This document shows, one piece after another, positions 56,901 through 59,900 of a stretch of DNA of 64,000 bases. Position 1 is the first letter of the stretch. The number at the start of each line of letters is the position of its first letter. Source of the DNA: Bdellovibrionales bacterium (GTDB taxonomy: Bacteria; Bdellovibrionota; Bdellovibrionia; Bdellovibrionales; JAUICD01); NCBI GenBank assembly GCA_965262715.1, contig OZ253553.1, forward strand, positions 2,875,091 to 2,939,090. Direction: 5' to 3'. A program made the position numbers.

Positions 56901-59900
56901 AGTTGTTTTTCAGGATAGGTATGAAAGTGAAAATCAGTTTATGTTTGTGCAGCAAAATCGATACTATTTATGATATTTTAACACCCTGTAAATTTTAACT
57001 GGCATCTTTCATGTTGTTCTGGTAGGTTAGCAAGTTAGGTTGTTTTCGATAAAAAAAGGGAAAGTATGAATATAATAGAAGTTAAAACAAGATCACAGTT
57101 AAAAAGATTTCTCAAACTGCCTCATAGTATTTATAACAACAATGATTATTATGTTACGCCTCTTAATGTGCTGATGAAGTCATTAATTGGTCGTCTCAAT
57201 AGTCCTAAAAAACATCTACTTATAGCTTCTGAAAATAATAATGATGTGGCTCGTATAGCTTTTAAGGTGCATAAGCACAAATCAGAAACTTTTCTTCACT
57301 TCGGTTTTTTTGAGTGTAAAGAAGGCTATGGTGAGGCAGTGAAAAAACTGATTGCATGGGGGCAGAATAAATACCCCCATCTTTCTTTGAAGGGGCCTTA
57401 TCATTTCACTATAGAAGACCCTTATATAGGAGTTTTAGTTGAGGGCTTTGATGAAGTGCCTTATTTTTTAATGCCTTATAACTTGCCATATTATGATAAC
57501 TACTTACAAAGTGCTGGACTTAAAAAAGCTATGGACCTTTTAACTTATCCTTTTAAACAAGACAGACAGCTTGACTCTCTTAAAGGACAAGTACAAAAAG
57601 CAAAGGATCATGGCATCACTATCCGTTTTATGAATGCGAGAGAATTTGACAAAGAGGCTCGGATTGTAGCTGGTATTTTTAATCAGGCTCTTTCTAACAA
57701 CTGGGGATTTGAAGAGTTTCAAGAAAGTCAAATTCGTGAGATGACTTCCATTTTCAGGTTTGCACTTGATCCTCGCATGGTTGCTTTGGCTGTAAAAGAT
57801 GGCAAAGATGTCGGATGTCTGATTATGCTCCCTAACTATAACCCTATTATTAAACCTCATAAAGGTAGAATCACTCCTCTTTTGATCTATAAGTATTTTA
57901 GAAGATATAAACTTTTTGACAGTATTAGAGGTTATGCTCTTGGAGTTTTAAAAGAGTACCACCATATAGGTATAGCCAGCTTACTGATAACAACAATGTT
58001 TGAACAAGGTGGAAAATATGGATATCCAAACTGTGAAGTTTCATGGGTCTTATCTAACAATGAATCTATGAACAGCTTTGGCCAAAGCCTATCTAAGACA
58101 GGAAAGTATAACAAAAAGTACCATAGTTATGAGGCTCCAGCTCTGCAAGCTCAATAACGCTATAAGTCTTGCGCTTTGAGAAATTATATACTCTAAGTAA
58201 TGCTTTGAGTAGATCCAAGCTCTTAAAAAACTAGGGAGATATTTTATGTTTAATTCTAAAAAGCATATTTTAGAATTTATAAGATTTATGAAACAAAAGA
58301 AGCTTTATCCTTACTTTAGAGTTCTAGAGGGATATCGTGGTAATAATGTCATTTATAACAATAAAGAGCTTGTCATGATGGGGTCCAATAATTATCTAGG
58401 GTTAACTCATGATCCAAGAGTTATGCAAGCGGCTATTGAAGCTATTAAGACGTGGGGGACAAGCTGTACAGGGTCTCGATTTCTAAATGGTAACTTATCA
58501 ATTCATGAGGAGTTAGAAGAAAATATAGCTGATTTTCTAAAATATGAGTCTTGTTTAGTTTATGCCTCGGGTTTTATGGCGAATCAAGGGAGTATTACTA
58601 CTCTGGTAGAGAAAGATACTGAAATTTTTAGTGATCAAGAAAACCATGCTTGTATTATTGAAGGTTGTAAATCTGCACAAGCTAAAGTTCATGTTTATAA
58701 GCATTCTGATATGGATGACCTTGAATCTAAATTAAAAAAATCTTCTTCTCGTGTGGATAAATTAATTATTACAGATGGTGTATTTTCCATGAAGGGGGAG
58801 ATTGCTCACTTAGATAAAATCACCAACTTGGCAAGGCAATACAATGCAAAAATTTACTTAGATGATGCACATGGACTTGGTGTTATTGGAGAAGGTGGTC
58901 GAGGAACTGGTAGTTACTACAATGTATGTCCTGATGTTATGATGGGAACTTTCTCTAAGTCACTGGCAAGTCAAGGCGGTTTTATTTGCGCTAGTCATGA
59001 GGTTATTGAGTGGATTAAACACCAGTCTCGTACTTTTATATTTTCTGCTGGACTGTCTCCTGCGAATGTAGCTGCTGCCAATATGACACTTAACATTTTA
59101 AGAAAAGAGCCAGAGAGAATAGACCAGCAAAGGGCCAATGCTAAATATTTGGGGGATGGATTAAAATCAGCAGGATTGACTGTTGTAGACTCTGAAACGA
59201 GTATCATTCCTATTTTAATTGGAGATGATCAAGCTACTCTTATGATTTGTAAACAGCTTTTAGATATGAATATTTTTACGACACCTGTGATTTTCCCTGC
59301 AGTTGCAAAGAGCCAAACATTGATCCGCTGTTCTGTCATGGCAACACATACGAAGGAAGAACTGAATAAAGCTATTGAAGCCTTTACGGGGCTTTCTGAC
59401 CAGATTATTAAAGCAAATAAGTCTGCCAACAATGATAAGTCTTATTTTGATATATTAAGTATGTCTCCTAACCGTGTATTTCAAGAAATACAAAAAATAG
59501 CACGTCATTAAGAGTTTTATAAAATGATAAAGAATATAATCCTAATACTTCTATTGTTAGCTCCTTTAATCTCAAGTGCAAGTATTCAACAAGATAAAGT
59601 GTTAAAAGCAATGGCTGTTGAGTTAGATAGGTGGACCTCTGAGAGTCAAATGCGAGTTTTGATGGAAGATGCATTTACAATCACTAGAGACAAGCCTTTG
59701 GATGTGACTGTCACAAAACAAAATATGAAGATTGATGGAAAAAGATGGACTTTAGGTAGAGGTTCTATAAGGGTTTTGATCAAAGCACCCATAGATAAAG
59801 TCAAAAAATTATTAACATCTCCATCGTATTTTCAATCTATCTACAACTTAGATGCTCCCTGTGTTATAAATGAAGATATTCGTAAGAAAGCTGATTTAAC

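What a model noticed while it worked through the whole genome (the two positions that open the first line are those of the whole stretch)
57066..59511. Diderm cell envelope without any lipid A / LPS synthesis or transport genes
No Lpx gene, KdsA/KdsB, MsbA-type exporter or Lpt protein is present, while BamA/BamD, TolB, OmpA, LolA, MlaD/E, TonB and secretins are kept, and an adjacent pair of genes for a bacterial ceramide synthase-like protein and serine palmitoyltransferase (g02505, g02506) plus a ketodihydrosphingosine-reductase-like gene (g01483) is present. Boldest reading: this clade keeps an outer membrane but builds its outer leaflet from sphingolipids instead of LPS, having lost LPS together with the flagellum and SRP when it became host-bound. 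It would be an LPS-free, sphingolipid-based lineage inside Bdellovibrionota.
Evidence so far: pfam.tsv has 0 rows for Lpx*, Lpt*, OstA, YjgP/LptF, CTP_transf_3, DAHP_synth_1, ABC_membrane and Glycos_transf_1. Six-frame LpxC PF03331: 0 candidates in G000, G003, G001, G002 and 328 bits in G004. LptD PF04453: 0 hits in those four and 64 bits in G004. LpxC is also missing from the SRP-less G616, G617, G619, G656 and present in G238. Swiss-Prot: g02506 is 43.8% identical to Bacteriovorax stolpii serine palmitoyltransferase (E 1e-103), g02505 is 26.6% identical to Caulobacter bacterial ceramide synthase (E 1e-31), and g01483 is 41.7% identical to mouse 3-ketodihydrosphingosine reductase (E 1e-47). 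Kept: BamA g01419, BamD g00481, TolB g00418, OmpA g00332, LolA g01507, MlaD/E g02059/g02061 a [...]
(Added by a program. Inside this text positions count along the whole contig: contig position 2,875,091 is position 1 of the stretch shown here. "Call 12" and the like, gene names such as g00115 and contig names such as C1 are that model's own, and its searches are not shown. The text may have been shortened before it was handed on; [...] marks where a part breaks off. The agent that wrote the report below was given it as the finding of a first reader that could run no searches.)

Follow-up and report, generated by a model that had tools for sequence, protein, structure and literature searches.

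The report
LPS-free Bdellovibrionales carrying ceramide genes
This bacterium and related Bdellovibrionales keep the machinery for an outer membrane but have lost the genes for lipopolysaccharide, apparently at least twice and nearly always together with the signal recognition particle; most of them lack the ceramide genes, so ceramide is not a general replacement for LPS.

Summary
LPS loss is confirmed. No LpxA/B/C/D/K, KdtA, KdsA/B, MsbA or LptA/B/C/D/F/G is found in six frames of G000. The LPS-positive sister genome G002 has them at nine loci, and G000 shows deletion scars (infA directly beside metG; nothing after bamA-skp-fabZ). BamA, TamAB, Tol-Pal, LolA and MlaDEF remain. The sphingolipid genes are credible, but they are ancestral rather than a replacement. 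Spt, the ceramide synthase and the KDSR-like gene occur in 15 of 285 class genomes, 13 of which keep LPS or Lpt genes. Of 27 genomes lacking both LpxC and LptF/G, only 2 have them. These 27 form two separate lineages (AU p=0.001); all 27 keep TamB and 26 lack Ffh. Best reading: an LPS-free, roughly symmetric phospholipid outer membrane supplied by TamB, with plain ceramide added in this genus only. There are no lipid data, and host association was not tested.

The parts
57066..58157 (+). Bacterial ceramide synthase-like GNAT/YghO-family acyltransferase (363 aa)
   Evidence: Weak GNAT Pfam hits. E 5.5e-32 to the Roseomonas 'dATP pyrophosphohydrolase' and 1.1e-30 to E. coli YghO, both within sphingolipid-type clusters. 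79 of 80 loci of distant homologs have an Spt-like neighbour.
58246..59511 (+). Serine palmitoyltransferase (421 aa)
   Evidence: NF047600 438 bits, best model but under its cut-off of 640; bioF 390, under 426. Best PDB hits are serine palmitoyltransferases 3a2b/8guh, E 9.5e-97 (10). Adjacent to the ceramide synthase in most relatives.
59524..60276 (+).
   Evidence: 12 bp after spt. No Pfam or NCBIfam hit. AlphaFold pLDDT 86.5. VIA-align Z 14.6, rmsd 2.9 over 160 residues to 3qsz (START); Z 13.1, rmsd 3.5 over 180 to the CERT START domain; Foldseek agrees. Directly behind spt in 11 of 13 other genomes examined. 27 of 30 full-length representatives have a hydrophobic N-terminus.

Best explanation
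G000 keeps an outer membrane but makes no LPS. Shown: the Raetz, Kdo, MsbA and Lpt genes tested were deleted on the stem of genera g1+g3, while BAM, TAM, Tol-Pal, Lol, MlaDEF and type IV pilus genes stayed. Inferred: the outer membrane is a roughly symmetric bilayer rich in beta-barrels and lipoproteins. Its glycerophospholipid (probably mainly phosphatidylglycerol) is delivered by the AsmA-like TamB-TamA bridge, the one lipid route seen in all 27 LPS-less genomes. In this genus an older sphingolipid pathway survives: Spt makes 3-ketosphinganine, a fungal/animal-type KDSR reduces it, and bCerS N-acylates it to dihydroceramide. Without a head group this lipid flips without MsbA (own knowledge) and could cross the periplasm through TamB or the secreted START protein. 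It would stiffen and dilute an anionic membrane but not form an LPS-like outer leaflet. It is optional, since 25 of 27 LPS-less relatives show no trace of it. LPS loss is part of a repeated reductive syndrome that also removed SRP in both lineages.
For: Absence plus scars: G002 infA-lpxD-metG versus G000 infA-metG 58 bp apart; G002 bamA-skp-fabZ-lpxA-gnnA-lpxB-lpxK versus fabZ followed by unrelated genes in G000, G003 and G004; rpoN without lptCA-lptB. 27 of 285 genomes lack both LpxC and LptF/G; TamB in 27 of 27. TamB is a proposed phospholipid transporter in E. coli (PMC8593681, abstract). Sphingolipid trio in 2 of 27 LPS-less and 13 of 258 other genomes. No Cpg-like enzymes or LptF2/G2; only 2 GT2 genes in G000 and 1 in G001. 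PgsA, CdsA and a PgpA motif present; PssA, Psd and ClsA not found with E. coli queries; no second CDP-alcohol transferase. The trio is as conserved as other genes (G001 vs G000 60-70% against a median 64.5%).
Against: No lipid data. TamB is also in nearly all LPS-positive genomes tested, so its retention is expected rather than diagnostic. Head-group and phospholipid absences rest on single-sequence queries and motifs, and one relaxed motif failed to find even PgsA. An unrecognised head-group enzyme or one of the two GT2s could make a polar sphingolipid. The START gene was not found in G001 or G039 with a single query, so it is not required for the pathway. Spt and KDSR fall under their NCBIfam cut-offs. 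With no PE or cardiolipin route found, ceramide could be a major membrane lipid in g1.
Confidence: 0.6

Rival explanations
1. First reader's reading, restricted to genus g1 (G000, G001): sphingolipid is the functional LPS substitute in the outer leaflet, as in Sphingomonas, delivered without Lpt (START carrier and/or TamB) and given a head group by an unrecognised enzyme.
For: All three enzymes are intact in both g1 genomes despite rearrangement. No PE or cardiolipin route was found. A secreted START protein is in the operon. Sphingolipids support lipid A loss in Caulobacter (PMC9393093, passages).
Against: The trio predates LPS loss. The sister genus g3 and 23 family-f6 genomes are LPS-free without it. 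No Lpt paralogs or Cpg-like enzymes, whereas the E. coli and Roseomonas clusters carry LptF/G copies. START gene not found in G001.
Confidence: 0.15
2. The outer membrane is stabilised mainly by host-derived lipids (sterols, host sphingolipids) and surface proteins. The cell's own ceramide serves the inner membrane or host signalling, and the START protein is an uptake carrier.
For: START folds bind many hydrophobic ligands, and sterol carriers (STARD4, MLN64, STARD5) score as well as CERT. MlaDEF kept; FadD present; 41 ORFs carry an ankyrin-like motif. Such uptake occurs in other LPS-less host-bound diderms (recalled).
Against: The START gene is tied to spt in LPS-positive, flagellated relatives too. 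Host association of G000 was not tested.
Confidence: 0.15
3. Assembly artefact: the LPS genes lie in the missing ~7% of G000.
For: 92.7% completeness; no terminal overlap; rpoC is split in two ORFs, suggesting indel errors. Seven fragmented genomes lack LpxC but keep LptF/G.
Against: The genes lie at nine loci in G002 and all are missing. Flanking genes are joined in G000. The same absence holds in G001, G003 (one contig each) and G004 (99%). Six-frame searches read through frameshifts.
Confidence: 0.03
4. The outer membrane itself is being lost and the remaining envelope genes are relics.
For: LPS, Lpt, all ABC_membrane exporters, flagellum and SRP are gone. MlaA, MlaC and PldA were not found with E. 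coli queries.
Against: Full-length BamA in all five family genomes (split in G004), TamB 27 of 27 (69), BamD, Pal, TolB, LolA, LolCDE, a secretin and several beta-barrel proteins.
Confidence: 0.04

Closest known systems
Sphingomonas (LPS-free, glycosphingolipid outer leaflet)
   Same: Diderm without lipid A, with Spt and bCerS-family genes (PMC9393093, PMC13721041 and PMC11324152, passages).
   Different: PMC11324152 lists orthologs of proposed sphingolipid transport genes (LptC2/F2/G2, flippase) for Sphingomonadales. G000 has no Lpt or MsbA, no head-group enzymes were found, and most LPS-less relatives have no sphingolipid genes.
Caulobacter crescentus ceramide pathway (Spt, bCerS, CerR, Cpg, LptC2/F2/G2)
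   Same: Spt and bCerS homologs; sphingolipid coexists with LPS, as in G002 and 12 other relatives.
   Different: The reductase is KDSR/TSC10-like, with no evident signal peptide, rather than periplasmic CerR (only a weak epimerase hit, E 1.2e-8). No Cpg or Lpt2 genes. A secreted START protein sits in the operon instead.
Borrelia, Treponema and other LPS-less host-bound diderms
   Same: Outer membrane kept without lipid A, surface presumably protein-rich (PMC13721041 and PMC9393093, passages).
   Different: Occurs here in a predatory phylum, at least twice, in genomes of 1.2-2.9 Mb, with Ffh lost in 26 of 27.
Sorangium cellulosum (LPS-lacking myxobacterium)
   Same: Deltaproteobacterial-type LPS-free diderm (seen only as a reference title in PMC11324152; its sphingolipid content is recalled).
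   Different: Large free-living genome (recalled); its Lpt status was not checked.
CERT / STARD lipid-transfer domains
   Same: Same helix-grip fold (Z 13-14.6).
   Different: 8-14% identity; bacterial and signal-peptide-bearing; ligand unknown. The fold does not single out ceramide.

Membership tests
LPS-free diderm | No lipid A/Kdo synthesis genes | tested here: met
   LpxA,B,C,D,K, KdtA, KdsA,B,D not found; a KdsC-like gene remains; LpxH/I and LpxL/M not tested
LPS-free diderm | Outer-membrane biogenesis genes retained | tested here: met
   BamA, BamD, TamAB, Tol-Pal, LolA, secretin
LPS-free diderm | Two membranes and no lipid A in cells | not testable with these tools
   Needs microscopy and lipidomics
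Sphingomonas-type sphingolipid outer membrane | Ceramide backbone genes (Spt, ceramide synthase, reductase) | tested here: met
Sphingomonas-type sphingolipid outer membrane | Head-group enzymes making anionic glyco- or phospho-sphingolipid | tested here: inconclusive
   Roseomonas kinase (partial), CDP-alcohol, phosphoesterase and nucleotidyltransferase queries found nothing; two GT2 genes of unknown substrate; no Sphingomonas glycosyltransferase was used as a query
Sphingomonas-type sphingolipid outer membrane | Lpt-type transporter available for outer-leaflet delivery (proposed role) | tested here: not met
   No LptF/G, LptD, LptC/A or LptB ortholog
Sphingomonas-type sphingolipid outer membrane | Sphingolipid genes shared by the LPS-less lineage | tested here: not met
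   2 of 27 LPS-less genomes
Bacterial serine palmitoyltransferase | Best match to Spt rather than BioF/Kbl/HemA | tested here: met
   NF047600 438 versus bioF 390 bits; top PDB hits are Spt
Bacterial serine palmitoyltransferase | NCBIfam equivalog cut-off | tested here: not met
   438 of 640 bits
Bacterial ceramide synthase (bCerS/YghO) | Full-length homology and linkage to spt | tested here: met
   E 1e-30 to 5e-32 over the full length; spt neighbour in 79 of 80 distant loci. The characterised Caulobacter protein itself was not compared
3-ketodihydrosphingosine reductase (KDSR/TSC10) | SDR closest to KDSR and co-distributed with Spt/bCerS | tested here: met
   Best PDB hit 8jat TSC10, E 2.7e-31, only just ahead of an unrelated SDR (2.8e-30); same 15 of 285 genomes as the close bCerS orthologs, counting split G289; next to the operon in G016 (74)
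3-ketodihydrosphingosine reductase (KDSR/TSC10) | NCBIfam bacterial KdsR cut-off | tested here: not met
   NF049977 109.5 of 400 bits
START/SRPBCC lipid-binding domain | Helix-grip fold | tested here: met
START/SRPBCC lipid-binding domain | Binds and transfers ceramide | not testable with these tools
   Inferred from gene linkage only

The most novel reading that the evidence does not exclude
Bdellovibrionia have at least twice evolved a minimal diderm envelope with no LPS, no Lpt, no MsbA-type exporter and no SRP, fed by a TamB bridge. In this genus a eukaryote-like route (Spt, KDSR, ceramide synthase, then a CERT-like START shuttle in the periplasm) supplies ceramide as a principal outer-membrane lipid, which would be the first Lpt-independent bacterial sphingolipid transport system.
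Probability: 0.2. Interest if true: 0.85.

Novelty: new variant of a known kind. Interest (0 to 1): 0.6.

Why it matters
Lipid A is considered essential in nearly all Gram-negative bacteria, and how sphingolipids reach the outer membrane is stated to be unknown (PMC11324152, passage). These genomes give natural replicates of LPS loss with close LPS-positive sisters, show that it can occur without sphingolipids, and point to TamB as a lipid route that survives the loss. The repeated co-loss of SRP (26 of 27) is unexplained and testable. The START protein is a concrete, cloneable candidate for a bacterial ceramide carrier.

Tried and rejected
Clade-wide sphingolipid replacement: rejected. The 160-215-bit Spt-model hits in 18 family-f6 LPS-less genomes: read as BioF, because many lie beside bioB/bioD-like genes and 3 of 3 tested score best as bioF. 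A single origin of LPS loss: rejected (AU p=0.00115; 10 of 32 rows, LG+G4, quick tree). Flagellum loss as a specific correlate: rejected. Weak LptF/G hits in G000 and G001 (16 and 13 bits) and hexapeptide hits to LpxD: below cut-off. Seven fragmented LpxC-negative genomes with LptF/G (G019, G045, G077, G167, G186, G194, G243) were treated as probable assembly gaps and, with G212, left out of the 27. The epimerase at contig 333839-334846 as CerR: weak (E 1.2e-8; best model HpnA under cut-off). Promoter/terminator scan: no more than chance. ESM Atlas on the lipoprotein upstream of mlaE: no named family. PlsX/PlsY/Psd/CDP-alcohol motif searches were uninformative or lacked a working positive control. 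Look-ups of earlier findings returned nothing. The bioRxiv paper defining bCerS was not held. No complex prediction was run. No supplements were read; those of PMC7313196 may list envelope genes of a sponge Bdellovibrionales genome.

Full report
Locus. The window holds a three-gene run on the + strand: 57066-58157 (363 aa), 58246-59511 (421 aa) and 59524-60276 (250 aa), 88 and 12 bp apart. G000 is one contig of 2,939,090 bp, 33.6% GC, 92.7% complete, with tRNAs for all 20 amino acids and no terminal overlap.

LPS loss is real. Six-frame profile searches of the five family genomes found LpxC, LpxB, LptF/G, KdsA, ABC_membrane, LptD, KdtA, LptB and LpxD over cut-off only in G002. BamA was over cut-off in 5 of 5. 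G002's own LPS proteins, from nine loci, found no ortholog among 20,087 six-frame ORFs of G000, while six control genes hit at E<=7e-44. E. coli KdsB, KdsD, LptA, LptC and the MsbA membrane part found nothing. Gene order shows deletion. infA-lpxD-metG in G002 is infA-metG, 58 bp apart, in G000. bamA-skp-fabZ continues into lpxA-gnnA-lpxB-lpxK in G002 but into unrelated genes in G000, G003 and G004. rpoN has lost its lptCA-lptB neighbours. One relic remains, a KdsC-like phosphatase. LptE, LpxH/I and LpxL/M were not tested. BamD, Tol-Pal, LolA, LolCDE, MlaDEF, TamAB, a secretin, pilus ATPases and beta-barrel proteins are present.

The sphingolipid genes are credible. The 421-aa protein scores best as serine palmitoyltransferase (438 bits, under the 640 cut-off; top PDB hits are Spt, E 1e-96). 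The 363-aa protein matches E. coli YghO and a Roseomonas protein that lie in sphingolipid-type clusters, and 79 of 80 loci of distant homologs have an Spt-like neighbour. The SDR at contig 1746274-1747134 has fungal TSC10 as its best PDB hit, by a narrow margin, and fails the bacterial KdsR cut-off. It occurs in exactly the 15 of 285 genomes that carry the close ceramide-synthase ortholog (14 at E<1e-130 plus G289, where the gene is in two pieces), and it lies beside the operon in G016.

They are not a clade-wide replacement for LPS. Among 285 class genomes at least 90% complete, 250 have LpxC. Of the 35 without, 8 keep LptF/G (seven fragmented assemblies and G212) and 27 lack both (40 genomes searched). 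The trio is in 2 of these 27 (G000, G001) and in 13 of the other 258; 12 of those 13 have LpxC and G045 has LptF/G. The closest LPS-less genus (G003, G004) gave no match to any of the three. Weaker Spt-model hits in 18 family-f6 genomes are BioF. An RpoB+RpoC tree of 61 of these genomes, and a 32-row subset, place G002 as sister to g1+g3 (SH-aLRT 92), inside a group of LPS-positive, trio-bearing families. The pathway therefore predates LPS loss and was dropped by g3.

LPS was lost more than once. The other 23 LPS-less genomes lie in family f6 (15 of them in the 61-row tree), and forcing one LPS-less clade is rejected (p-AU 0.00115; simple model, long branches present). LpxB was also not found in 5 of 5 f6 genomes tested. 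TamB is in 27 of 27, though also in 9 of the 10 other genomes in that call. Ffh is missing in 29 of 285 genomes: 26 of the 27 LPS-less ones plus three fragmented assemblies (nine negatives were deduced from the tallies). FtsY was not found in G000 either. G215 lacks LPS but keeps Ffh. G212 lacks LpxC and LpxB but keeps LptF, LptG and Ffh, with kdsA gone from the lptF site. This hints at the order lipid A, then Lpt, then SRP, but G212 groups with LpxC-positive g83 on long branches, so the order is not established. FlhA is absent from all 27 but also from 11 of 25 other genomes. Kin are not independent: the count is two lineages, not 27 events.

The third gene. The 250-aa protein has no Pfam or NCBIfam match. 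It follows spt directly in 11 of 13 other genomes examined (one partial at a contig end) and in 2 of 3 metagenome loci, the third being too short. It was not found in G001 or G039, nor beside one more distant named record. Only 39 clusters match among 1.84 billion representatives, and 27 of 30 full-length ones begin with a hydrophobic segment (no signal-peptide predictor was run). Its model (pLDDT 86.5) is a START/SRPBCC fold: Z 14.6 to a Xanthomonas START protein, 13.7-13.1 to STARD4, MLN64, STARD5, StAR and CERT, with small SRPBCC proteins tied. The E. coli and Roseomonas clusters carry LptF/G copies, as proposed for Caulobacter (PMC11324152, passages); the fetched loci of this clade instead show the START gene. 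A ceramide-carrier role is inferred from linkage only.

How it most likely works. Shown: the gene losses and retentions above. Inferred: lipids reach the outer membrane through TamB-TamA (role from PMC8593681, abstract), which has no known means of choosing a leaflet. G000 has PgsA and CdsA, but PssA, Psd, ClsA, a second CDP-alcohol transferase, Cpg-like enzymes, MlaA and PldA were not found with single queries, and it has only two GT2 genes. The simplest product is head-group-free dihydroceramide, which flips unaided (own knowledge) and cannot hold asymmetry. I put a roughly symmetric phosphatidylglycerol-plus-ceramide membrane at 0.6, an asymmetric sphingolipid leaflet in g1 at 0.15, reliance on host lipids at 0.15, and artefact or membrane loss under 0.1 together.

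Lifestyle. Not tested. G000 has 41 ORFs with an ankyrin-like motif (recalled pattern, no control) and no AroF, PheA or TyrA match. PMC7313196 (passages) describes a 1.6-Mb sponge Bdellovibrionales genome without flagella and does not mention LPS in its main text; I did not link it to any genome here.

Literature. LPS-free diderms are known: Sphingomonas, Borrelia, Treponema (PMC9393093, PMC13721041, passages). Nine full-text searches found no report of LPS-free or SRP-free Bdellovibrionota or of a START protein in a bacterial sphingolipid operon; the library lacks most subscription papers. Also seen: PMC11087976 (first of four parts), PMC11713862 and PMC11870529 (passages), PMC9278070 (listing only). 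No supplements were read.

Verdict. This is a new variant of a known kind, interest 0.6, carried by repeated loss of LPS and Lpt with SRP and by a candidate Lpt-independent ceramide carrier, not by sphingolipid replacement.

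Noticed in passing
G000 contig 2198524-2198955 (outside window): Four near-identical 88-89 bp tandem copies of a tRNA-Trp-like gene with an enlarged anticodon loop (ARAGORN reads TACA) directly before the true tRNA-Trp; real array or assembly artefact unknown.
   Followed up: partly
class-wide: Ffh is missing in 26 of 27 LPS-less genomes in two lineages; FtsY also not found in G000. How membrane proteins are targeted is unexplained.
   Followed up: partly
L341:8460-9554 and L342:8825-9961 (G212): G212 (2 contigs, 94%) keeps diverged LptF and LptG but lacks LpxC, LpxB, the Spt/bCerS genes and kdsA at the lptF site: a possible intermediate, or Lpt with another cargo.
   Followed up: partly
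L068:6984-9993, L070:6932-10022 versus G000: Genes that look like gatCAB (label from recalled motifs) in G003 and G004 have no tblastn match in G000.
   Followed up: no
G000 contig about 1317000-1321200: rpoC is split into overlapping 1019- and 378-aa ORFs, and BamA of G004 is split too; likely sequencing indels.
   Followed up: no
window 55143-55850 (+): 235-aa protein with a signal-like N-terminus and beta-signal-like C-terminus, one of several similar small beta-barrel candidates in G000; no Pfam hit itself.
   Followed up: partly
L349:7116-7637, L352:7531-8070, L351:8142-8615: Unnamed lipoprotein conserved upstream of mlaEFD in G000, G001 and G003; Atlas neighbours unnamed, with a weak PsbP-like lead (15% of one cluster).
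   Followed up: partly
G000 whole genome: No ABC_membrane (type IV ABC exporter) domain at all in G000, G001, G003 or G004; PE and cardiolipin synthesis not found in G000.
   Followed up: partly
L122 (G214): An LPS-positive f6 genome carries a different, distant spt-bCerS pair (32% and 28% identity), probably acquired separately.
   Followed up: no
window 50237-54947: Respiratory complex I genes (nuoE/F/G/I-like, labels recalled) with a 236-aa coiled-coil ORF of no family (53649-54359) inserted among them.
   Followed up: no
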